Assembly: GCA_963674745.2 (NCBI GenBank)
Contig: CAXXDV010000001.1
Span: 1,504,001-1,568,000 of the forward strand
Direction of reading: 5' to 3'
Source: Desulfosudaceae bacterium
GTDB lineage: Bacteria > Desulfobacterota > Desulfobacteria > Desulfobacterales > Desulfosudaceae
DNA: 64,000 nucleotides
The notes under the pieces are model-generated. The model made no database searches, was not told where the DNA came from, and saw only the letters and a list, made by a program, of their open reading frames with translations. This document shows, piece after piece, positions 10,574 through 19,923 of the stretch. The stretch's first letter is position 1. The number at the start of each line of letters is the position of its first letter. The position numbers were made by a program, and so were the translations under genes.

Positions 10574-11017
10574 TCATTTCCTATTTAATTCACTGCTAAT
10601 GATGTCTTTAATATTCTTCTCATCAAGAAAACATTTATATAAAACGGCACGTATTCTTGATTCATCTTTTTTTGCAACGGCCGCATCAAAATCATCAAGT
10701 AAGCCTAAATTGAATAATCTTTCATTGACAGTCATTCCGTGGATTGAGCGAACAAATAACTCTTTGAACTTATCCCATGCTTGATATGCTTTGGAGTATG
10801 AAGCATTGTCTTTAAGCCAAGAATTTCCGAAGAGCTTTTCCATCGTAGAGATATCATCACCAATAGGTTGCGCTTTCACCAACTTTGAAATAATTATCGC
10901 AGAGTAGGACAGAAACCTTTCATAAATAGGTATGTCTTCAGCATAGTTTGTCTTTCTGGCAAGAGATTCAATTTCTAAAATGAATTCCGCCATCAATGAT
11001 ATTTCTGTTTCATTCAT
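10574..11017 (-). CDS. Cassette: hypothetical protein
   Basis: Contains GMTVNERLF; start corrected to ATG 11017. Confidence 0.8.
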   Translation of the reverse strand: MNETEISLMAEFILEIESLARKTNYAEDIPIYERFLSYSAIIISKLVKAQPIGDDISTMEKLFGNSWLKDNASYSKAYQAWDKFKELFVRSIHGMTVNERLFNLGLLDDFDAAVAKKDESRIRAVLYKCFLDEKNIKDIISSELNRK

Positions 11018-11032
11018 GATTTTGAGACCCAA

Positions 11033-11424
11033 CGTCTGCAGCCAAAGTAGCCAGGGCTTTCTCCGACTGCCTTAAAGATGGTTAATGTTCGATTTTCCCC
11101 GAATTTTCGAACCCGAGTGCCCTGGCTATCATTTGGGCTGCTTGGTTGTGCGAAAATATATTTTATAGTGATTCACAAAAATTTGCAGGGCTTTTCGTTA
11201 CAAAGTTTTGCAAAAAAGTACAGAAACCGTTTTTCATCTTTTCCGGATTGACTGGCGAATTCAAAAAATCCAATTTCTGGCTGATCAGAAACGCATGATC
11301 TGATCGATGCCGGTGGTTCATTCGCAAAGATGAAAAATATATCTTTTTTCCCCTTTGTTTCAAATTCATCCTGCCAAAAATTATCGAGTAGCTCGATTTT
11401 CCAAAAAGCGTTTTATACGCACAA
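11033..11424 (-). mobile_element. ORF-less cassette, family B (copy 1 of 4)
   Basis: 392-bp unit with its own attC; long hairpin at 11230-11337. Confidence 0.88.
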
Positions 11425-11557
11425 CGTCTTCAGCCAATGGGCGCCAGGGCTTCCACTGACCGGCTTAAAGTCGGATAATGTTCAATTCAGCACGGCAGTT
11501 CAAAGCCCGAGTGCCCTGGCGGTCCTTTGCGCTGAATGGTTATAAATCGAAACCTTT

Positions 11558-11881
11558 TTAATATATTTTTTCCTTTTCCCAATTGTTCAGAATTGCATCA
11601 TATCGGTCAGCTTGCTTCTCCCAACGATCCAATATATTCGACATGCGCTCAACATTGATCTTTTGTAATCCTTGTAGCCGAGCGGATTCTTCTAACTGTC
11701 TTTTAGTTTCCAATTGGAGCTCAATGTTTTTTTTGACCTGTTGCTCATACATATCAACCTGGTGTTGATATCCATTTTGTTTCTGGGGCGCTAAATGGGG
11801 GCTATTGAAAATATTGTAAACAATGATTAAGGCAAAGAATAAAATTATCGTCAGACTGACGCCTTTCCAAAAACTATTCAT
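11558..11881 (-). CDS. Cassette: membrane-anchored coiled-coil protein
   Basis: N-terminal TM followed by a Q/E/K-rich helix. Confidence 0.75.
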   Translation of the reverse strand: MNSFWKGVSLTIILFFALIIVYNIFNSPHLAPQKQNGYQHQVDMYEQQVKKNIELQLETKRQLEESARLQGLQKINVERMSNILDRWEKQADRYDAILNNWEKEKIY

Positions 11882-12016
11882 TGGTGTGCCTCATTGATTT
11901 ATAACGTCCGCCACCACCGGCGAGCAGGGTTTGCGGACTTCGCTAAAGTGAGTTTAACTCTAAATTACGCCAGACCAAAAACAGCCCGCCCCTGCGAGTC
12001 CGTGTGGGTGGCGTGG

Positions 12017-12436
12017 TTATACGCCAGATTTATTTTTTTCAACTTTTTCAAGAATGTCTTTGATTAATAAAGGGTCATCTGCCCAGAAAGGTCTTGGAAT
12101 TCTAACGACCGATTTATTTATACCGTCTTTTAGTTTTATGAACAGAAAAGGATTAAAGCTAAATGTTTTTTTTGCATTTGATAATTTAACAGTTCCTCGT
12201 CCTAAAAATGGGTCTATGGCTTCTATTTCGTCATCTACCATAACTGACCCCATGCTTAGCATAGCACTTAAAGCCCCTATGATACCGCATAATAGAGCTA
12301 TTAAACCGATAAATTTTAGAAAGGGTATGTCAAATCCACATTCACAACCAGCATAAATAAAAATAATAATCGAAGAGGATATTGCAGCGGCTAAAGACTG
12401 CTTCCAAACATTCAATTTTATAATATAATTTTTCAT
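12017..12436 (-). CDS. Cassette: membrane protein
   Basis: Fills the cassette. Confidence 0.75.
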   Translation of the reverse strand: MKNYIIKLNVWKQSLAAAISSSIIIFIYAGCECGFDIPFLKFIGLIALLCGIIGALSAMLSMGSVMVDDEIEAIDPFLGRGTVKLSNAKKTFSFNPFLFIKLKDGINKSVVRIPRPFWADDPLLIKDILEKVEKNKSGV

Positions 12437-12570
12437 TTTATTTGTGTAGCGTATAACGTCTTCAGCCAGAGGGCGCCAGGGATTCCACTGACTGACTTAA
12501 AGATGGTTAAAGTTCATTAAGCACGGTTGTTCAAAAAAGCCTGCCCTGGCGATCCTGCTGGGCTGAATTG

Positions 12571-12951
12571 TTAGAATTTCAATAATTTTAGAACCTTATC
12601 TTTAATGGACGCTTTATCTTTGTGCTGTTCTAAAACATCTGGGTGATAAAGTTTTTCTGCATCCTTCGTTCTATAACCATACTTGCGCCCAGCATCCGGA
12701 TTCTCAGTATCAACAATTGTCCCAACATGCCATCCTTCGTATCTTACCGCACAACTAATATGTAAGGTAAGAAAGGTTCCTTTATTTTCGATTTTTCGAA
12801 TAATTACGCTAAATGGATGATGTGTCTCATATAGGATAAATTCATCATCCACATTCAAATCGCCAGATATTACCTGAACGTCGATTTGTGGTTTATGATC
12901 AAAATCCTTTTTTTCTATTGGCCGAGAGGCAATTATTTTGAAAACAGCCAT
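12571..12951 (-). CDS. Cassette: hypothetical protein
   Basis: Fills the cassette. Confidence 0.75.
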   Translation of the reverse strand: MAVFKIIASRPIEKKDFDHKPQIDVQVISGDLNVDDEFILYETHHPFSVIIRKIENKGTFLTLHISCAVRYEGWHVGTIVDTENPDAGRKYGYRTKDAEKLYHPDVLEQHKDKASIKDKVLKLLKF

Positions 12952-13087
12952 AGGTATAATTTTATAATTCTAACGTCCGCCACCACCGGCGAGCAGGGGT
13001 CTGCGGACTTCGCTAAAGTAAAGTTCAACTCCAAATTACGCCAAAGCCAAAACAGCCCGCCCCTGCGAGTCTGTGTGAGTGGCGTGG

Positions 13088-13711
13088 TTAGCCTGCTTTA
13101 TCTATATAATTTAGTAACTCAGACATATTAACATTATAGTTTGTAAAAAACATGTGCCCTTTGCCAGTTCTATCTCTTTTTCTGCATTTTTCTCTATGTG
13201 ACTTGTTAATTGATAATTCATATTTTGTAAAATCATGAATTTTGATACCGATCACGGTAATTCGTGGGCTTGGTCTTATAACAAGTTCAAAATCATTATA
13301 AGGCAATTTAATACCAATTCGATAATCTTCATATCCCTGGCTATCAAATTTGCCAATCACAGGCAGTTCAAATAAATCTTTGAAGCCGAAAACGCCAAAA
13401 AAAAACGATAGTAAAATAAAGAAAATTCCTGGAATGAGTCCAGTAACTCCGTGTATATGAATGATGTATGCGCCACATAGCAGTAGAATCATGCCTAAAA
13501 AAATTACAATTAGGGAGATTTGTTTATTTGATGTCACTTCGATTTTGTCTTTAGTGATGAACCGGGTATTATTTTTTCCCTTTTTCCTATCGGATATTTC
13601 TTTTTTAACAAGCTCAAATCGATCTTTATATTTCTCCCTATCTATATGGAAATAAATATCCTTTAATTCGTCCAAGCCCAATTGGTTAAGATATTCTTGG
13701 TAATCGTTCAT
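13088..13711 (-). CDS. Cassette: membrane protein
   Basis: Two central TM segments; fills the cassette. Confidence 0.75.
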   Translation of the reverse strand: MNDYQEYLNQLGLDELKDIYFHIDREKYKDRFELVKKEISDRKKGKNNTRFITKDKIEVTSNKQISLIVIFLGMILLLCGAYIIHIHGVTGLIPGIFFILLSFFFGVFGFKDLFELPVIGKFDSQGYEDYRIGIKLPYNDFELVIRPSPRITVIGIKIHDFTKYELSINKSHREKCRKRDRTGKGHMFFTNYNVNMSELLNYIDKAG

Positions 13712-13851
13712 CAAGATTTTCTCAGGCTAACGTCCGCCACCACCGGCGAGCAGGGTTTGCAGACTTCGCTAAAGTGAGTTTAACTCCAAATTACGCCAAA
13801 ACCAAAGCCGACCGCCCCTGCGAGTCCGTGTGAGTGGCGTTGTTAGCTGTT

Positions 13852-14355
13852 TCATTGATCAGCTGTAAACAATACATATCGATTATTTTCAGCTGCCCGA
13901 TTATATAATTGTCGAACATTTTGAAACCAATCCCAAGTGTATTCAAAATCCTCGTCTGTTAATTCCATACCGTAGCTTTCAGGGTTTATGCTAAAATATT
14001 TTTTTCTAAATTCGCTTTCTGATATTTCTATTAAAGCCTTATTGATATCTTTAACTTGATCGGGAGATTTTAAACTCATTATATAGTCATCGTCTGTGTA
14101 GAGAAGATCACCAGCAAGAACAACATGATTTAATGGGTAATTACCACCATCCCAAGTTAACTCACCATCGGCAAGAACACGATGCATCGCATCCCAAGCT
14201 TTGTCACTTTCAGCAGCGAATTTCTTGTCATCTTCTAAGTATTGTTCTTCAATTACTTCAGTGACAAACTCAAGTCGATCTTGCTCATCGTCCATTGATA
14301 TAATCGTTTTGACTTCTGATTCATTAAGAGCGAAATGGACACCTAAACATGACAT
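13852..14355 (-). CDS. Cassette: YfbM/DUF1877 family protein
   Basis: DKAWDAMH motif; AGGAG RBS before MSCLG at 14355. Confidence 0.85.
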   Translation of the reverse strand: MSCLGVHFALNESEVKTIISMDDEQDRLEFVTEVIEEQYLEDDKKFAAESDKAWDAMHRVLADGELTWDGGNYPLNHVVLAGDLLYTDDDYIMSLKSPDQVKDINKALIEISESEFRKKYFSINPESYGMELTDEDFEYTWDWFQNVRQLYNRAAENNRYVLFTADQ

Positions 14356-14380
14356 TATAGGTTCTCCTTCCAACAGCTAA

Positions 14381-15164
14381 CGTCTGCAGCCAAAGTAGCC
14401 AGGGCTTTCTCCGACTGCCTTAAAGATGGTTAATGTTCGATTTTCCCCGAATTTTCGAACCCGAGTGCCCTGGCTATCATTTGGGCTGCTTGGTTGTGCG
14501 AAAATATATTTTATAGTGATTCACAAAAATTTGCAGGGCTTTTCGTTACAAAGTTTTGCAAAAAAGTACAGAAACCGTTTTTCATCTTTTCCGGATTGAC
14601 TGGCGAATTCAAAAAATCCAATTTCTGGCTGATCAGAAACGCATGATCTGATCGATGCCGGTGGTTCATTCGCAAAGATGAAAAATATATCTTTTTTCCC
14701 CTTTGTTTCAAATTCATCCTGCCAAAAATTATCGAGTAGCTCGATTTTCCAAAAAGCGTTTTATACGCACAACGTCTGCAGCCAAAGTAGCCAGGGCTTT
14801 CTCCGACTGCCTTAAAGATGGTTAATGTTCAATTTTCCCCGAATTTTCGAACCCGAGTGCCCTGGCTGTCATTTGGGCTGCTTGGTTGTGCGAAAATATA
14901 TTTTATAGTGATTCACAAAAATTTGCAGGGCTTTTCGTTACAAAGTTTTGCAAAAAAGTACAGAAACCGTTTTTCATCTTTTTCGGATTGACTGGCGAAT
15001 TCAAAAAATCCATTTTCCGGCTGATCAGAAACGCATGATCTGATCGATGCCGGTGGTTCATTCGCAAAGATGAAAAATAAATCTTTTTTCCCCTTTGTTT
15101 CAAATTCATCCTGCCAAAAATTATCGAGTAGCTCGATTTTCCAAAAAGCGTTTTATACGCACAA
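14381..15164 (-). mobile_element. Two tandem ORF-less family B cassettes (14381-14772, 14773-15164)
   Basis: Near-identical to 11033-11424 with a few substitutions. Confidence 0.88.
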
Positions 15165-15282
15165 CGCCCGCCACCACCGGCGAGCAGGGTTTGCGGACTT
15201 CTCTAAAGTGAGTTCAACTCCAAATTACGCCACAACAAAAGCCGCGCGTCCCTGCGAGTCCGTGTGGGTGGCGTTGTTATCT

Positions 15283-15522
15283 CTAAATGTTATGCTTTTT
15301 TTTAACTTCTGAGATTCTATCCCAAACTGCTTTTGAAACTGAATCTTGGGATACTTGATCGAAAATGTTATTTAGTACCCGTTTTTCATCATCATCAATA
15401 ATATTATCGGCCATTGCTAATCCAAGCAGATAATTGATTTCTCCAATATCCAGCGTACCATCATCAGTGAAACATTTAATAGAGTCGAGGGCAATTCTTA
15501 AATGACTTTCAAGTGGTGACAT
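15283..15522 (-). CDS. Cassette: small TerB-like protein (copy 2)
   Basis: Identical to 7159-7398. Confidence 0.65.
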   Translation of the reverse strand: MSPLESHLRIALDSIKCFTDDGTLDIGEINYLLGLAMADNIIDDDEKRVLNNIFDQVSQDSVSKAVWDRISEVKKKHNI

Positions 15523-15719
15523 TTGATTGTACCTTTCTCTCCAAGAGGGTTGTCGGTTAAAGCGCACTTAATATTATAAGAGAGATAACGTCTGCAGCCA
15601 AAAGCAGCCAGGGCTTCCACTGCCGTTCTTAAAATTGTTTGCTGTTTAAAAACCACCGAATGTTCAAAAACGCCTTAGCCCTGGATGTCTTCTTGGGCTG
15701 CTTGGTTATACTCCGCCAG

Positions 15720-16025
15720 TCATTTTGAGGTTAACATCAATAGTGTTATAAAAAGCCATATAAAAATAAGGCAGATGCTAAAAGCTCCCCATTTTTTTCT
15801 TTTAAAATCCCGTACGCAAACACCAACAGATCCAATAAAGACGATTACTGATAGTGCTGAAAGCAAATAATGATCATTTTTGTACAATTCTGTAGCGACA
15901 TAGGTTGGAAGACAAATAATTAATAGTAACATCAAAAAACTGAGCGCAATAAAGTGAATGGCTTGATCTAGAAAATCCATTCCTTTGAAAAAGCTCTTAA
16001 TATATTCGAACATTCTTAATTCCAT
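15720..16025 (-). CDS. Cassette: small membrane protein
   Basis: Three hydrophobic segments. Confidence 0.75.
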   Translation of the reverse strand: MELRMFEYIKSFFKGMDFLDQAIHFIALSFLMLLLIICLPTYVATELYKNDHYLLSALSVIVFIGSVGVCVRDFKRKKWGAFSICLIFIWLFITLLMLTSK

Positions 16026-16151
16026 GCGGAGTATAACGTCTTCAGCCAGAGGGCGCCAGGGCTTCCACTGACTTGATTAAAGGTGGTTAATGTCCAGTTC
16101 TCTCAAAAGTTCAAAACCCGAGTGCCCTGGCGATCCTACTGGGCTGAATTG

Positions 16152-16679
16152 TTAGCCTTTTTTATTTTTATAATTGATTACGGTAATCCTATCTGTATCG
16201 GGTAACTCAATCCAGTTTTCATCTGGAAAATCTGGATCTTTCCCAATGCACACATATGGGTGGCTGTTTATTTCGCAAACCTTTTTATAATCTTGAAGAT
16301 CATTTTGGATTTCTTCCCATGTATCGCCAGATGCAATACAATCTATATCACCGGGGAAAGACGTATCCCCCAAAATACTCCAATTTTCGCCTTCTCGATA
16401 ATTATTCTTGGCTCTGCTTAAAAGACTCTCAGAAAAAATTCCACGTATCGGATATGCATTCTTGAATATACTCAAAATATATTTGGAATTTATATTCATT
16501 TCGTTGTTTTCTGCATAGAGTACAAGATTCTTATACCTATCTATAGAATTGATGAAAAAGTCTGGCCCTTTACCAGGGAAATTAACAAAGTGTACATCAA
16601 CAAAAAGCAAATCTTGTTCCTGAAGCCATGTCCTCAAGGTTTCCGTAACAAATTGATCGTTGTAAGAAAAAGGTCCCAT
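16152..16679 (-). CDS. Cassette: hypothetical protein
   Basis: Start corrected to MGPFSYND at 16679. Confidence 0.75.
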   Translation of the reverse strand: MGPFSYNDQFVTETLRTWLQEQDLLFVDVHFVNFPGKGPDFFINSIDRYKNLVLYAENNEMNINSKYILSIFKNAYPIRGIFSESLLSRAKNNYREGENWSILGDTSFPGDIDCIASGDTWEEIQNDLQDYKKVCEINSHPYVCIGKDPDFPDENWIELPDTDRITVINYKNKKG

Positions 16680-16693
16680 GTTTGTAAGGCTAA

Positions 16694-17502
16694 CGTCTGC
16701 AGCCAAAGTAGCCAGGGCTTCCAGTGACTGACTTTAAGGTGGTTGATGTTCAATTTCCCCCGAATGTTCAAAAGCCGAATGCCCTGGCTATCATTTGGGC
16801 TGCTTGGTTAAGTGCCCGCATTATTCAGAAAGACTTAAACGACAGCATGGGCAAATAAAATAAAATGTTATTTTTCTTTTTACGCTTTGTCCATCATGTA
16901 CTTATGAAAACGGGTAGGTCTCTTTTCATCCGGACAAATAAAGGCGCATTATCACTTGGCCGCGCCAGTTCGAAATTACAATTTATCTTTACTGGACAAA
17001 AATATCAACTTGGTGACAATTACCATTTTGGCAACGAATGTCGATTTCAGCCCAAATTCTTTTTTTTATTTTTTTCCCGTACAGAATCAGTGCACTTAAC
17101 GTCTGCAGCCAAAGTAGCCAGGGCTTCCAGTGACTGACTTTAAGGTGGTTGATGTTCAATTTCCCCCGAATGTTCAAAAGCCGAATGCCCTGGCTATCAT
17201 TTGGGCTGCTTGGTTAAGTGCCCGCATTATTGAGAAAGACTTTAACGACAGCATGGGCAAATAAATTAAAATGATATTTTTCTTTTTACGCCTTGTCCAT
17301 CATGAACTTATGAAAACGGGTAGGTCTCTTTTCATCCGGACAAATAAAGGCGCAAAATCAAACAGTCCCGCCAGATCAAAATACAGCTTATCTTTACTGA
17401 TTGAAAATATCAATCTAGTGACAATTTCCATAGTGGCAACGAAGATCATTTTTCGTCAAAATTCTTTTTTTATTTTTTCCCGTACAGATTAAGTGCACTT
17501 AA
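16694..17502 (-). mobile_element. Two tandem ORF-less family A cassettes (variant 16694-17099; canonical 17100-17502)
   Basis: Share attC type and the invariant hairpin core with 6170-6572. Confidence 0.9.
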
Positions 17503-17615
17503 CGTCCGCCACCACCTGCGAGCAGGGAATGCGGTCTTCGCTAAAGTGAGTTTAACACCAAACTACGCCAAAGCCAAAAACAGCCCACCCCTGCGAGTCT
17601 GTGTGAGTGGCGTTG

Positions 17616-17837
17616 TTATACCTTTTCTCTTTTTTTCTTTAAAGTCGCTAATGAATTCACTATTGCTGCTACAAGAAAGACGCCGCTTAGAAACAGCAAT
17701 ATTGGACATGAAATCATGACGAATTTCTCAGCAGGTGAATTGGGTACGACAGAAATGGAGGAAATTACAAGAAAGGGAATAAAACAAAGGAAGAAACCCG
17801 CCCAAAAGGAATGCTGCTTATGTTTCCCTGATTCCAT
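17616..17837 (-). CDS. Cassette: small membrane ORF (second ORF of a two-ORF or degraded cassette)
   Basis: 73 aa, two hydrophobic segments. Confidence 0.5.
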   Translation of the reverse strand: MESGKHKQHSFWAGFFLCFIPFLVISSISVVPNSPAEKFVMISCPILLFLSGVFLVAAIVNSLATLKKKREKV

Positions 17838-17867
17838 ATATTAAACCTTTTCAAATGTATAAAACAT

Positions 17868-18044
17868 TCATCCAAAACAAGATAACATTAAAACAACCCC
17901 ATGACACGCAAAACCACCAATCAGGAATTTAATGGCGCTTGGCCTTTTCTGATCATTTATTTGTTCTAAAAGGACTTCTGCAATTCCAATAAATTCTAAA
18001 ACTATTCCACAGACAGTCAGGATTATAACAAAAGGTATATCCAT
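17868..18044 (-). CDS. Cassette: 58-aa hydrophobic ORF (below track cutoff)
   Basis: Manual translation MDIPFVIILTVCG...LSCFG*; same frame as 17616-17837. Confidence 0.45.
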   Translation of the reverse strand: MDIPFVIILTVCGIVLEFIGIAEVLLEQINDQKRPSAIKFLIGGFACHGVVLMLSCFG

Positions 18045-18180
18045 ATTCTTTTAGGTCGGTATAACGTCTTCAGCCAAAGGGCGCCAGGGCTTCCTCTGAC
18101 TGTCTTAAAGATGGTTAATATTCAGTTTCCCCCAAATGTTCAAAACCCGAGTGCCCTGGCGATCCTTTTGCGCTGAATGG

Positions 18181-18708
18181 TTAACTGTTGACTATATAAT
18201 TTTTAAAAATTTTATGAAAACGTTTATGTAAATCTACCAATTCCGGGTTTTGAATGAACCTTGTAAATTGGATAAATATATATAGGGTGGCAATTATCAG
18301 AATTGGGAAAGCAATATTAACAAGTACCTCTTTATCAAAGACCATACCTATCGCCACACAACACCATGAAATAACCATGACTATTCCAAAAAACCAGTTT
18401 ACCAATTGCTTAGATTTGAACAAATTAAATGGTGGTAAAAGCCTTGAAGTGGCTTTCAAGAAAGATTTATCGCCATTTGGAACTATTTCTCCCGTGACGA
18501 CAATATCGGTTATGTTGCTGTAGATCGTATTTGGCCAAACCAAAAATTTATTTTTGTATATTATGCCTTTAATGCTTGTCTTTGTCATGAACCATGGCAA
18601 AAGAATATGATCGAGAGAAGCGGATAACACACCGAGGGCATGCTTGGCATTGCAGTTAAGCAGCAACTCAGTCTCGAATTTATCTTTGTCCTTTGTACTA
18701 TCGTTCAT
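18181..18708 (-). CDS. Cassette: membrane protein
   Basis: Two C-terminal TM segments; fills the cassette. Confidence 0.75.
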   Translation of the reverse strand: MNDSTKDKDKFETELLLNCNAKHALGVLSASLDHILLPWFMTKTSIKGIIYKNKFLVWPNTIYSNITDIVVTGEIVPNGDKSFLKATSRLLPPFNLFKSKQLVNWFFGIVMVISWCCVAIGMVFDKEVLVNIAFPILIIATLYIFIQFTRFIQNPELVDLHKRFHKIFKNYIVNS

Positions 18709-18726
18709 TACTTTTTATACAGTTAA

Positions 18727-19923
18727 CGGCGGCAGCCAAAGTAGCCAGGGCTTTCTCCGACTGCCTTAAAGATGGTTAATGTTCAATTTCCCCCGAATTT
18801 TCGAACCCGAGTGCCCTGGCTGTCATTTGGGCTGCTTGGTTGTGCGAAAATATATTTTATAGTGATTCACAAAAATTTGCAGGGCTTTTCGTTACAAAGT
18901 TTTGCAAAAAAGTACAGAAACCGTTTTTCATCTTTTCCGGATTGACTGGCGAATTCAAAAAATCCATTTTCCGGCTGATCAGAAACGCATGATCCGATCG
19001 ATGCCGGTGGTTCATTCGCAAAGATGAAAATTATATCTTTTTCCCCTTTGTTTCAAATTCATCCTGCCAAAAATTATCGAGCAGCTCGATTTTCCAAAAA
19101 GTGTTTTATACGCACAACGGCGGCAGCCAAAGCAGCCAGGGCTTCCACTGCCTTTATTAAAGTTGTTTGCTGCTCAATTCCCCCGGCATGTTCAAAAACC
19201 GAATGCCCTGGCTGTCATTTGGGCTGCTTGGTTAAGTGCCCGCATTATTCAGAAAGCCTTTAACGACAGCATGGGCAAATCAATTAAAATGATTTTTTTC
19301 TTTTTACGCCTTGTCCATCATGAACTTATGAAAACGGGTAGGTCTCTTTTCATCCGGACAAATAAAGGCGCAAAATCAAACAGTCCCGCCAGATCAAAAT
19401 ACAGCTTATCTTTACTGATTGAAAATATCAATCTGGTGACAATTTCCATAGTGGCAACGAAGATCATTTTTCGTCAAAATTCTTTTTTTATTTTTTCCCG
19501 TACAGATTAAGTGCACTTAACGTCTGCAGCCAAAGTAGCCAGGGCTTCCAGTGACTGACTTTAAGGTGGTTGATGTTCAATTTCCCCCGAATGTTCAAAA
19601 GCCGAATGCCCTGGCTATCATTTGGGCTGCTTGGTTAAGTGCCCGCATTATTGAGAAAGACTTTAACGACAGCATGGGCAAATAAATTAAAATGATATTT
19701 TTCTTTTTACGCCTTGTCCATCATGAACTTATGAAAACGGGTAGGTCTCTTTTCATCCGGACAAATAAAGGCGCAAAATCAAACAGTCCCGCCAGATCAA
19801 AATACAGCTTATCTTTACTGATTGAAAATATCAATCTGGTGACAATTTCCATAGTGGCAACGAAGATCATTTTTCGTCAAAATTCTTTTTTTATTTTTTC
19901 CCGTACAGATTAAGTGCACTTAA
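18727..19923 (-). mobile_element. Three consecutive ORF-less cassettes: B (18727-19117), A (19118-19520), A (19521-19923)
   Basis: Direct sequence match to families A and B. Confidence 0.9.

What the first reader, a model, noticed from the sequence alone, without database searches (positions are those of the whole stretch)
11033..19117. ORF-less cassette family B: four copies with a ~108-nt nested hairpin
Seen: copies at 11033, 14381, 14773 and 18727. A perfect 12-bp outer stem TTTTTCATCTTT/AAAGATGAAAAA (11230-11241 with 11326-11337) encloses GCGAAT/ATTCGC and GATCAGA/TCTGATC stems, and there is a separate ATCGAG-TAG-CTCGAT palindrome. The 68-aa TTG-start ORF is frameshifted in the 18727 copy while the stems persist. 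ATGAAAA/TTTTCAT pairing also occurs in family A. Inference: a second structured RNA or ssDNA element.
Basis: partly seen in the sequence, partly recalled or inferred. Interest (0 to 1): 0.72.

Follow-up and report, generated by a model that had tools for sequence, protein, structure and literature searches.

The report
Amplified gene-less integron cassette (family B)
This repeated 392-base unit is a mobile integron cassette with no working conventional gene, copied eight times around one bacterial genome; its hairpin is real but shows no sign of being a selected RNA structure, so it is an ordinary though unusually amplified member of a known class.

Summary
The unit is a canonical integron cassette, window 11033-11424: a 119-nt attC plus a 273-nt cargo, with its sense on the minus strand. 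It lies in an integrase-less array of 86 cassettes.

The genome holds 8 copies in 5 arrays, and their flanks diverge exactly at the AA|C crossover. B (8 copies) and family A (24 copies) are the shortest and most amplified of 159 cassette families.

I found no support for a structured RNA. Fold z is -1.1 to -2.5, no better than ordinary cassettes. There were 0 compensatory pairs, no Rfam hit and no homologue elsewhere.

The 68-aa ORF starts with ATG on the minus strand. Its codon usage is non-coding, and it is broken in 2 of 8 copies. A second sense frame of 79 codons has gene-like codon usage but no start codon and no homologue. That suggests a decayed gene, or less likely a -1 frameshift gene.

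Best reading: a gene-less cassette spread by IntI recombination and slippage, probably carrying a sense-strand promoter, as shown for Vibrio and Treponema gene-less cassettes.

Earlier notes of this scan report amplified gene-less cassettes in other genomes. None resembles B in sequence.

The parts
11033..11424 (-). Family B cassette, copy 1 (392 nt; sense strand is the window minus strand)
   Evidence: Boundaries from 8-copy alignment: flanks diverge at AA|C on both sides; first 6 nt of the sense strand TTGTGC are complementary to R'' GCACAA(C) (I10).
14381..14772 (-). Family B cassette, copy 2 (100% identical to copy 1)
14773..15164 (-). Family B cassette, copy 3, in tandem with copy 2 (98%)
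18727..19117 (-). Family B cassette, copy 4 (97%; 1-nt deletion in the A-run, TAA in the 68-aa frame)
11033..11151 (-). attC recombination site of copy 1 (R'' GCACAAC at 11151..11145; crossover G at 11033)
   Evidence: matches my nhmmer attC model; ssDNA fold z -3.13 / -2.96, 0 of 200 shuffles as good on either strand; inverted repeats I4, I8
11152..11424 (-). 273-nt cargo of copy 1
11230..11337 (.). Nested inverted repeat: outer 11230-11241/11326-11337, middle 11255-11260/11320-11325, inner 11283-11289/11299-11305
11383..11397 (-). Palindrome ATCGAGCTACTCGAT followed by AATTTTTGG on the sense strand (weak terminator-like hairpin, -5.5 kcal/mol)
   Evidence: present in all 8 copies, loop base changed in the 18727 copy
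11336..11363 (-). Sigma-70-like site on the sense strand: TTGAAA (11363..11358), 16 nt, TATATT (11341..11336), 10 of 12
   Evidence: kept at 10/12 or better in 6 of 8 copies; consensus match only, activity untested
11163..11369 (-). 68-aa ATG ORF (sense frame 1), judged not coding
11176..11412 (-). 79-codon stop-free sense frame 0 (P0003) with gene-like codon usage but no ATG/GTG/TTG start; TAA at 11415..11413 closes it upstream, TGA at 11175..11173 ends it
11343..11349 (-). A AAA AAG heptamer in the ATG frame; a -1 shift here enters frame 0; the outer stem starts 5 nt downstream
   Evidence: read; intact in 6 of 8 copies; function untested

Best explanation
Family B is a non-autonomous integron cassette. 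It consists of a 119-nt attC site plus a 273-nt cargo that no longer holds a conventional gene.

Shown:
- It has canonical cassette ends.
- It sits co-oriented with its neighbours in cassette arrays.
- It occurs 8 times in 5 arrays of one genome that encodes three intact-looking integron integrases.
- Its upstream and downstream neighbours differ from copy to copy.

Inferred:
- The copies arose by IntI-mediated excision and re-insertion with replicative resolution, which duplicates a cassette. Local slippage between near-identical attC sites would add the tandem pairs. Both processes are favoured by the cassette's short length.
- The cargo is most simply the remains of a small gene in sense frame 0 of about 80 codons that lost its start.
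- The nested inverted repeat is a by-product of a sequence very rich in A/T runs, not a selected RNA or DNA structure.
- The effect on the cell, if any, is most likely in cis. A sigma-70-like promoter on the sense strand (window 11363..11336) would restart transcription into the attC and the next cassette, as shown experimentally for gene-less cassettes of Vibrio and Treponema integrons.

My odds: it is a mobile gene-less cassette, 0.9. It has sense-strand promoter activity, about 0.5. The hairpin is a selected structure, about 0.1.
For: Cassette identity:
- Eight copies at 97-100% identity. Similarity stops exactly at AA|C on both sides.
- The cassette's first bases are complementary to R'' (I10).
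- The attC folds better than all 200 shuffles on both strands.
- My attC model finds 236 sites in 13 clusters, 87 of them in this array.
- Three matches to the integron-integrase model exceed its cut-off with no internal stops. Arrays lie divergent from them.
- The 8 copies have 7 different upstream and 7 different downstream neighbours.

No conventional gene:
- The 68-aa ORF scores 0.002 per codon. All 120 real 68-codon windows score higher, and 78 of 92 spurious antisense ORFs score at least as high.
- It is broken in 2 of 8 copies, once by TAA at codon 11 and once by a frameshift plus that TAA.
- No homologue was found (none; 2 hits, both internally repetitive proteins).

Amplification pattern:
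- Of 223 cassettes in 159 families, A has 24 copies and B has 8. No ORF-bearing family has more than 4.
- The 32 shortest cassettes are all A or B.
- Gene-less cassettes sit next to each other 7 times, against 3.16 expected (p 0.014).
- B's attC is not unusually stable. Similar attCs (about 75-87% identical) sit on ORF-bearing cassettes that have 1, 2 or 4 copies.
- Literature (passages read): replicative resolution explains cassette duplication (PMC3458562). Shorter cassettes excise more often in some settings, and small cassettes between similar attCs undergo integrase-independent slippage (PMC5371416).

Promoter:
- A 10/12 sense-strand site is kept in 6 of 8 B copies and 19 of 24 A copies, with no antisense site in B.
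- Only 13 of 141 ORF-bearing families carry such a site, 0.14 per kb.
- Most of 29 Vibrio gene-less cassettes have sense promoter activity (PMC11014356; abstract, introduction, sections 18 and 23, discussion read).

Ex-gene:
- Frame 0 is open for 79 codons with codon score 0.166. The mean for real ORFs is 0.163, and 11 of 314 non-coding open segments reach 0.166.
- Stop triplets per sense frame are 2, 1 and 8.
Against: - Promoter activity is only a consensus match. Such matches are common in this AT-rich DNA: 47 in 12 kb against 33.9 +/- 5.3 in shuffles. PMC11014356 section 23 reports that in-silico prediction did not track measured activity.
- The host is no enteric. Its 16S is 80.6% identical to E. 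coli and it carries dsrA, so the consensus may transfer poorly.
- One copy (14773) has the key A of the -10 changed. Another (18727) has a 15-nt spacer.
- Tandem copies are not what a promoter role predicts.
- The decayed-gene idea has no homologue behind it.
- The protein-atlas recognition score is low, 1571 against a 2300 mark. The fold is poor, pLDDT 55.7.
- Substitutions among copies favour frame 1 if anything. Frame 1 shows 5 synonymous, 5 non-synonymous and 1 nonsense. Frame 0 shows 2, 10 and 1.
- Two sense frames open for 79 codons or more occurred in 0 of 2000 shuffles. Neither a non-coding nor a single-frame model fully explains this.
- No expression data exist for this organism.
Confidence: 0.5

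Rival explanations
1. An inert, self-spreading cassette. The cargo is a dead gene with no regulatory effect. The copy number reflects only the ease with which a very short cassette between near-identical attC sites is excised, re-inserted and duplicated by slippage.
For: - B and A are the two shortest and the two most amplified families.
- Gene-less cassettes cluster in tandem (p 0.014).
- Variable sites are equally dense in the attC (8 in 119 nt) and the cargo (13 in 273 nt, plus one deletion).
- No constraint is detectable on any frame or stem.
- Effects of cassette length and attC similarity on excision and slippage were measured in E. coli (PMC5371416, passages read).
Against: - Both amplified gene-less families carry a sense-strand 10/12 promoter-like site, which only 13 of 141 ORF families have.
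- Five other families without a long ORF are single-copy, so lacking a gene is not enough for amplification.
- B's attC is not more stable than average.
Confidence: 0.25
2. One reading: the 108-nt nested hairpin is a functional structured RNA (a small RNA or cis-acting leader) or a single-stranded DNA element.
For: - The perfect 12-bp stem is reached by only 15 of 1000 shuffles.
- The hairpin's z is -2.50 as RNA and -2.55 as DNA on the plus strand. Given the cassette orientation, I take the plus strand to be the bottom strand of the attC.
- The one substitution in the inner stem gives G.U on the sense strand.
- An ORF-less cassette encoding a trans-acting small RNA is known in Xanthomonas (cited in PMC8876359 and PMC6557892, passages read).
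Against: - Whole-cargo z is -1.06 and -1.58. The sense-strand hairpin z is -1.67.
- 5 of 6 ordinary cassettes have a better best window.
- There are 0 compensatory pairs, and the terminal pair is broken in 3 of 6 distinct sequences.
- An alternative local pairing competes for the same arm (I3; seen in the fold).
- No Rfam match.
- No structural homologue in 150 genomes of the order. The two hits, at E 0.013 and 0.099 per genome, are what chance gives.
- No promoter-plus-terminator layout of a small RNA gene on either strand.
- The predicted sense promoter's -10 overlaps the 5' arm, so RNA started there would lack most of the outer stem.
Confidence: 0.1
3. A recoded small gene. Translation starts at the ATG (11369) and slips -1 on A AAA AAG (11349..11343) into the gene-like frame 0. 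The hairpin starts 5 nt downstream and acts as the frameshift stimulator. Alternatively, length changes of the A-run switch between two open frames.
For: - The heptamer is in phase with the ATG, and a -1 shift leads into frame 0.
- Frame 0 has codon score 0.135 after the run, against 0.020 for frame 1.
- Both sense frames stay open to within 25 nt of the attC, which 0 of 2000 shuffles match.
- The spacer of 5 nt and a stem of 18 pairs on a contiguous 5' arm fit what I recall of dnaX and IS3-type signals. That comparison is from memory and was not tested.
Against: - Frame 0 is also gene-like upstream of the ATG (0.240 over 23 codons). That fits a lost start better than a slip.
- A one-base loss in an in-frame A7 run would create this heptamer automatically.
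- Frame 0 changes among copies are 2 synonymous, 10 non-synonymous and 1 nonsense, the nonsense shared by 2 copies.
- The heptamer is altered in 2 of 8 copies.
- No homologue of the frame-0 product. Poor fold.
- No ribosome-binding site at a proper distance from the ATG (GGCAGG abuts it).
Confidence: 0.08
4. The 68-aa ATG ORF on the sense strand is a real small protein gene.
For: - It is in cassette orientation and ends 11 nt before the attC.
- It is intact in 6 of 8 copies.
- 5 of 11 substitutions are synonymous.
Against: - Its codon score is lower than all 120 real windows.
- TAA or a frameshift occurs in 2 of 8 copies.
- No homologue among 5.8 billion clustered proteins or 1.84 billion representatives beyond two repeat artefacts.
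- No Pfam match.
- It covers only 75% of the cargo, against about 90% in typical cassettes here.
Confidence: 0.04

Closest known systems
Gene-less 'promoter cassettes' of Vibrionaceae sedentary chromosomal integrons (Blanco et al. 2024, PMC11014356)
   Same: A cassette with canonical attC, no ORF above 210 bp, no protein homologue, embedded in a long array far from Pc, with a sense-strand promoter-like site. That paper also reports gene-less cassettes that look like degenerated genes.
   Different: - B is shorter: 392 bp with a 273-nt cargo, against 491-666 bp there.
- The host is a dsrA-carrying non-enteric bacterium.
- B is present in 8 copies across 5 arrays.
- Promoter activity is untested here.
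- No sequence similarity was sought or found with the Vibrio cassettes.
ORF-less cassettes with promoter activity from oral Treponema integrons (Tansirichaiya et al. 2019, PMC6557892)
   Same: ORF-less cassettes that carry sigma-70-like promoters.
   Different: Treponema integrons are atypical, with the integrase co-oriented with the cassettes (per PMC11014356 discussion). Promoters were also reported on the antisense strand there (PMC8876359 passage). B has no antisense 10/12 site.
sRNA-Xcc1, a trans-acting small RNA encoded by an ORF-less integron cassette of Xanthomonas campestris (Chen et al. 2011, seen only as cited in PMC8876359 and PMC6557892)
   Same: Non-coding cargo of an integron cassette.
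   Different: - No Rfam family of any kind matches B, even at E up to 10.
- B has no small-RNA gene layout and no expression evidence.
Duplicated cassettes of large chromosomal integrons explained by replicative resolution (Loot et al. 2012, PMC3458562; Loot et al. 2017, PMC5371416)
   Same: Identical cassettes at several array positions. Short length and similar flanking attCs favour excision and slippage.
   Different: Here the amplification is concentrated on two gene-less families (24 and 8 copies, against 4 at most for ORF cassettes). In the passages I read, those papers do not describe this.
dnaX / IS3-type -1 programmed frameshift signals (recalled, not checked in any call)
   Same: An A AAA AAG heptamer in frame, a short spacer, then a stem.
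   Different: - No evidence of a frameshift product.
- The stem encloses 84 nt.
- The heptamer is explicable as a scar of a one-base deletion.

Membership tests
Integron gene cassette | attC site with inverse core sites (R'' RYYYAAC and R' GTTRRRY) able to fold as an imperfect hairpin | tested here: met
   R'' is GCACAAC (one departure from RYYYAAC). R' is G|TTGGGT on the sense strand. Paired arms are I4 and I8. ssDNA fold z is -3.13 / -2.96, with 0 of 200 shuffles as good. It matches my attC profile.
Integron gene cassette | The unit moves as a whole: identical copies in different contexts with similarity ending at the G|TT crossover | tested here: met
   8 copies. Flanks diverge at AA|C (the plus-strand view of G|TT) on both sides. 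There are 7 distinct upstream and 7 distinct downstream neighbours.
Integron gene cassette | Lies in an array of co-oriented cassettes; an integron integrase is available | tested here: met
   The array has 86 cassettes, all with attC on one strand. Three IntI matches exceed the TIGR02249 cut-off elsewhere in the genome. This array itself has no adjacent integrase, so it is an attC cluster lacking an integrase.
Gene-less (promoter) cassettes as defined by Blanco et al. 2024 | No ORF longer than 210 bp and no conserved small protein | tested here: met
   The longest start-to-stop ORF is 68 aa. No homologue for either long frame.
Gene-less (promoter) cassettes as defined by Blanco et al. 2024 | Measured promoter activity, mostly on the sense strand | not testable with these tools
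   Only a 10/12 consensus match on the sense strand. No RNA run is listed for this organism.
Structured non-coding RNA | Folding energy clearly below shuffled controls | tested here: inconclusive
   z is -1.06 to -2.53 depending on strand, copy and window, and -0.96 in the 18727 copy. 5 of 6 ordinary cassettes have a better best window.
Structured non-coding RNA | Base pairs kept through compensatory changes in homologues | tested here: not met
   0 of 25 pairs show a change on both sides. One pair goes to G.U, and the terminal pair is broken in 3 of 6 distinct rows. The copies are 97-100% alike, so power is low. No diverged homologue was found.
Any Rfam family (including integron-borne small RNAs, if held) | Covariance-model match | tested here: not met
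   0 matches at gathering score in the whole window. The best hit in 10900-11600 has E 0.93, far below its gathering score.
Protein-coding cassette | ORF with start codon, host-like codon usage, filling the cargo, kept intact among copies | tested here: not met
   Frame 1 has a start but non-coding codon usage, and is broken in 2 of 8 copies. Frame 0 has gene-like codon usage but no ATG/GTG/TTG, and has TAA in 2 of 8 copies and a frameshift in another.
Miniature inverted-repeat transposable element | Copies of the inverted-repeat unit on their own, outside cassettes, with target-site duplications | tested here: not met
   The covariance model of the hairpin finds only the 8 cassette copies in the genome. 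No direct repeat flanks 11230-11337.

The most novel reading that the evidence does not exclude
The nested hairpin is the stimulator of a programmed -1 ribosomal frameshift. The ATG frame meets A AAA AAG, with the hairpin 5 nt downstream, and a -1 slip enters the only frame with gene-like codon usage. On this reading B would be a recoded small gene, or a two-frame gene, carried and amplified as an integron cassette. This would also explain why two overlapping sense frames stay open across the cargo, which none of 2000 shuffles reproduce.
Probability: 0.08. Interest if true: 0.6.

Novelty: new member of a known kind. Interest (0 to 1): 0.3.

Why it matters
Gene-less cassettes are a recognised but little-studied part of integrons. 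Experimental work so far covers Vibrio and oral Treponema.

Here, in a distant dsrA-carrying host with about 236 attC sites and three integrases, the two most amplified cassette families are the two shortest, and neither holds a conventional gene. Together they make up 32 of 223 cassettes.

If their sense-strand promoters are real, long arrays outside Vibrio are also kept transcribed by internal promoter cassettes. If they are inert, they are a clean example of cassettes spreading as parasites of the integron's own recombination machinery.

For annotation, the lesson is that a striking hairpin in an AT-rich repeated cassette is not enough to call a structured RNA.

Tried and rejected
- RNA evidence: no RNA holder is listed for this stretch. 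Only two runs of one sample hold it, kept as contigs.
- Laying those contigs showed unitigs that break or cross-join at attC sites, with sides of 21-33 nt. This says nothing about excision or expression. No indel was reported in the A-run, but the runs may be the assembly's own source.
- Homologue hunts for the cargo all failed:
  - 40 relatives.
  - 400 genomes of the order with the whole cassette, where only the attC part (query 1-124) matched, in 12 other genomes.
  - 400 genomes with the cargo alone, giving only 20-59 nt chance hits at E of 0.001 or worse per genome.
  - Exact 22-mer scans, two of metagenome contigs and two of species genomes, using three different probes, all 0.
  - Plasmid and phage collections, no match.
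  - Covariance model in 150 genomes, chance-level hits only.
- Protein-level hunts:
  - 68-aa ORF.
  - Frame-0 product.
  - 400 genomes in six frames: 2 weak hits with internal stops, not reproduced by tblastn and not in cassettes.
- Six-frame peptides of B against its own genome gave only 3 noise hits.
- Family A and B cargos share nothing beyond the attC, which is 86% identical over 118 nt.
- The fold of the frame-0 product was uninformative (pLDDT 55.7).
- Arrays of relatives fetched for comparison were short fragments of 1-4 attCs, with no amplified short cassettes visible.
- An extra arm masking the attC, as earlier notes describe for Gemmata cassettes, was looked for and not seen.
- A role for attC stability in the copy number was rejected.
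- Earlier findings of this scan hold nothing on this place and no look-alike sequence.

Full report
**Observation.** The repeat finder gives four 300-nt copies at 11031, 14379, 14771 and 18725, at 100, 100, 98 and 97% identity. The perfect 12-bp inverted repeat 11230-11241 / 11326-11337 is reported as I1. The inner GCGAAT/ATTCGC and GATCAGA/TCTGATC stems and the ATCGAG-TAG-CTCGAT palindrome are in the sequence as described.

Corrections:
- The 68-aa ORF is ATG-initiated and lies on the minus strand, 11369..11163.
- The genome holds eight copies, not four.
- In the 18727 copy the stems are eroded, not intact.

**What the unit is.** Window 1 to about 28000 is 37-41% G+C, against about 50% for the genome. 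It is tiled by about 120-nt imperfect palindromes that begin AAC and end GTT on the plus strand. All substantial ORFs between them are on the minus strand.

A profile built from 12 of these sites finds 236 in the genome, in 13 clusters. Eighty-seven of them form one run at C1:1480922-1531324 that includes the window. Three loci elsewhere match the integron-integrase model above its cut-off, with no internal stops. Arrays lie next to them in divergent orientation. The window's array has no integrase at its end; the first host genes are acyl-carrier and ketosynthase genes. So it is an integrase-less cluster of attC sites.

In the eight-copy alignment, similarity starts and stops exactly at AA|C, the plus-strand image of the G|TT crossover. 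The first bases of the cassette's sense strand (TTGTGC) are complementary to its own R'' box (I10). Family B is therefore a complete cassette, window 11033-11424: attC 11033-11151, cargo 11152-11424, sense on the minus strand. Its attC folds better than all 200 shuffles on either strand.

**Genome-wide picture.** Cutting the arrays at the crossovers gives 223 cassettes in 159 families.
- Family A has 24 copies of about 405 bp. Family B has 8 copies of 391-392 bp.
- No family with an ORF over 70 aa has more than 4 copies. The distribution is 125 single, 22 double, 3 triple and 2 quadruple.
- The 32 shortest cassettes are all A or B.
- B copies have 7 different upstream and 7 different downstream neighbours. 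One downstream neighbour (family 24) is shared by two integrons.
- In the 86-cassette array, gene-less cassettes are adjacent 7 times against 3.16 expected (p 0.014).
- B's attC is not unusually stable: -17.7 kcal/mol against a mean of -20.4 for other cassettes. Similar attCs (about 75-87% identical) sit on ORF-bearing cassettes with 1, 2 or 4 copies.

**Is the hairpin a selected structure?**
- The whole cargo folds at z -1.06 (sense) and -1.58 (antisense).
- The 108-nt stretch chosen around the perfect repeat gives z -1.67 (sense) and -2.50 (antisense) as RNA. As DNA it gives -1.82 and -2.55. In the 18727 copy it gives -0.96.
- To allow for having picked the best window, I scanned 108-nt windows on both strands. 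B's best z was -2.75 and A's was -3.0. Six ORF-bearing cassettes averaged -3.74, and five of the six were better than B. The sample is small and used 30 shuffles per window.
- A perfect repeat of 12 bp or more arises in 15 of 1000 shuffles, and in 2 of 148 cassette families. The cargo has the highest density of A/T runs of 5 or more among all 159 families.
- On the eight copies (six distinct), none of 25 pairs shows a compensatory change, one shows A-U to G-U, and the terminal pair is broken in three.
- A local alternative pairing competes for one arm (I3).
- No Rfam family matches.
- A covariance model of the hairpin finds only the eight copies at home, and chance-level hits in 150 genomes of the order.

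**Is it coding?**

*The 68-aa ORF (sense frame 1).*
- It scores 0.002 per codon on a log-odds model trained on 120 cassette ORFs of this genome. All 120 real 68-codon windows score higher (mean 0.163). 78 of 92 spurious antisense ORFs score as high or higher.
- It carries TAA at codon 11 in two copies, and a one-base deletion in one of these.
- It has no homologue. The word-index search found none. The full phmmer search gave two hits that are internally repetitive proteins matched in three stretches.

*Sense frame 0 was unexpected.*
- It is in phase with the first base of the cassette and is stop-free for 79 codons (11412..11176).
- It scores 0.166, the mean of real genes. 11 of 314 non-coding open segments reach this.
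- The score is 0.240 before the A-run and 0.135 after it.
- Stop triplets fall 2, 1 and 8 in the three sense frames. The whole-frame profile looks like that of ORF-bearing cassettes.
- Yet frame 0 has no ATG, GTG or TTG start. It is closed by TAA at codon 4 after an initial TTG.
- It has no homologue by four searches (the two weak hits were checked and dismissed). It folds poorly.
- Among copies it shows 2 synonymous, 10 non-synonymous and 1 nonsense change. Frame 1 shows 5, 5 and 1.

Two sense frames open for 79 codons or more occurred in none of 2000 shuffles. In real ORFs here, an off-frame this open is uncommon: 14 of 120 have a +1 run of 58 codons or more.

The simplest account is a small gene that lost its start and is drifting. 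This echoes the degenerated-gene cassettes noted in the discussion of PMC11014356. The second open frame remains unexplained.

**A bolder reading.** The ATG frame runs into A AAA AAG (11349..11343). A -1 slip there enters frame 0, and the outer stem starts five bases further on. This is the layout I recall for dnaX and IS3-type frameshift sites; I did not check that recollection.

Against it:
- Frame 0 is gene-like even upstream of the ATG.
- A single-base loss from an in-frame A7 run would create the heptamer by itself.
- The heptamer is altered in 2 of 8 copies.
- There is no sign of purifying selection.

I give it 0.08.

**How it most likely works.**

*Shown:* B is a mobile cassette that has been placed at many array positions in a genome with three integrases.

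*Inferred from the literature:* Integron recombination uses one folded strand and is resolved by replication. An excised cassette can therefore re-insert into the sister molecule that kept the original, which duplicates it (PMC3458562, discussion passage). In E. coli assays, shorter cassettes excised more often when the attC bottom strands were on the lagging-strand template and one site folded poorly. Small cassettes between similar attCs were also lost without integrase, by slippage (PMC5371416, passages). This fits amplification of the two shortest families and their tandem pairs.

*For a cellular effect,* the best lead is a sense-strand sigma-70-like site: TTGAAA, 16 nt, TATATT, at 11363..11336 (10 of 12).
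- Using the same rule genome-wide, only 13 of 141 ORF-bearing families have a 10/12 sense site (0.14 per kb). Both A (19 of 24 copies) and B (6 of 8) do, and B has no antisense site.
- Most of 29 Vibrio gene-less cassettes had sense promoter activity. The same paper shows that in-silico prediction did not track measured activity (PMC11014356, abstract and section 23).
- The host is far from E. coli (16S 80.6%; dsrA present; no SusD).
- RNA started at this site would lack most of the outer stem's 5' arm.

I therefore put promoter activity at about 0.5, and an inert, self-spreading cassette at about 0.25.

**Comparison with known kinds.** B meets every tested criterion of an integron cassette, and the sequence criteria of a gene-less cassette as defined in PMC11014356. 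The defining functional criterion, measured promoter activity, cannot be tested here. It fails the tests for an Rfam family, for a covarying RNA, for a conventional protein gene and for a free-standing miniature transposon.

It is a new member of a known kind. The points of interest are its amplification, its host, and the odd pair of open frames.

Earlier notes of this scan describe amplified gene-less cassettes in other genomes. None is similar in sequence to B.

Noticed in passing
window 16689-17500, 19113-19920 and elsewhere; genome-wide: Family A is a 403-407 bp cassette with no ORF above 49 aa on the sense strand and stops in all frames (6/6/5). It is the most amplified cassette, with 24 copies in 6 arrays. 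Its attC is 86-89% identical to B's in 22 of 24 copies, but its cargo is unrelated. 19 of 24 copies carry a sense-strand 10/12 promoter-like site about 50 nt upstream of the attC.
   Followed up: partly
whole genome (G000): A very large integron complement for one genome: 236 attC-like sites in 13 clusters. Three integrases have arrays of 15-23 cassettes each, and integrase-less arrays hold 86, 44 and 21 cassettes.
   Followed up: partly
G000 C1:2275721 (family 98) and C1:2287536 (family 107): Two cassettes scored as lacking a long ORF have sense frame 0 (in phase with the first cassette base) free of stops across the whole cargo of 507 and 710 nt, with gene-like codon scores. They appear to hold genes without an ATG/GTG/TTG start inside the cassette.
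   Followed up: no
G000 C1 around 1.2-1.55 Mb (the window's array at 1.48-1.53 Mb): The cumulative GC skew of contig C1 reaches its minimum at about 1.5 Mb. So the 50-kb cassette array sits in or next to the skew switch that usually marks the replication origin. C3 has the opposite switch at about 1.35 Mb.
   Followed up: no
G000 C3:37259-37650 and C3:2344161-2344552: In two different integrons, B is followed by the same 109-aa cassette (family 24). The two-cassette block has either moved together or been exchanged by homologous recombination.
   Followed up: no
window 11283-11309: Three GATC sites and an ATCGAT palindrome are packed into 27 nt at the centre of the inner hairpin. The ATCGAG-N3-CTCGAT palindrome is centred about 61 nt upstream of the start predicted from the promoter-like site. 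Both motifs are almost confined to B in this genome: 8 of 9 and 7 of 8 occurrences.
   Followed up: partly
window 13852-14373 (-): The cassette next to B copy 2 encodes a DUF1877 protein (E 1.7e-32). Most other cassette proteins tested had no Pfam match.
   Followed up: no
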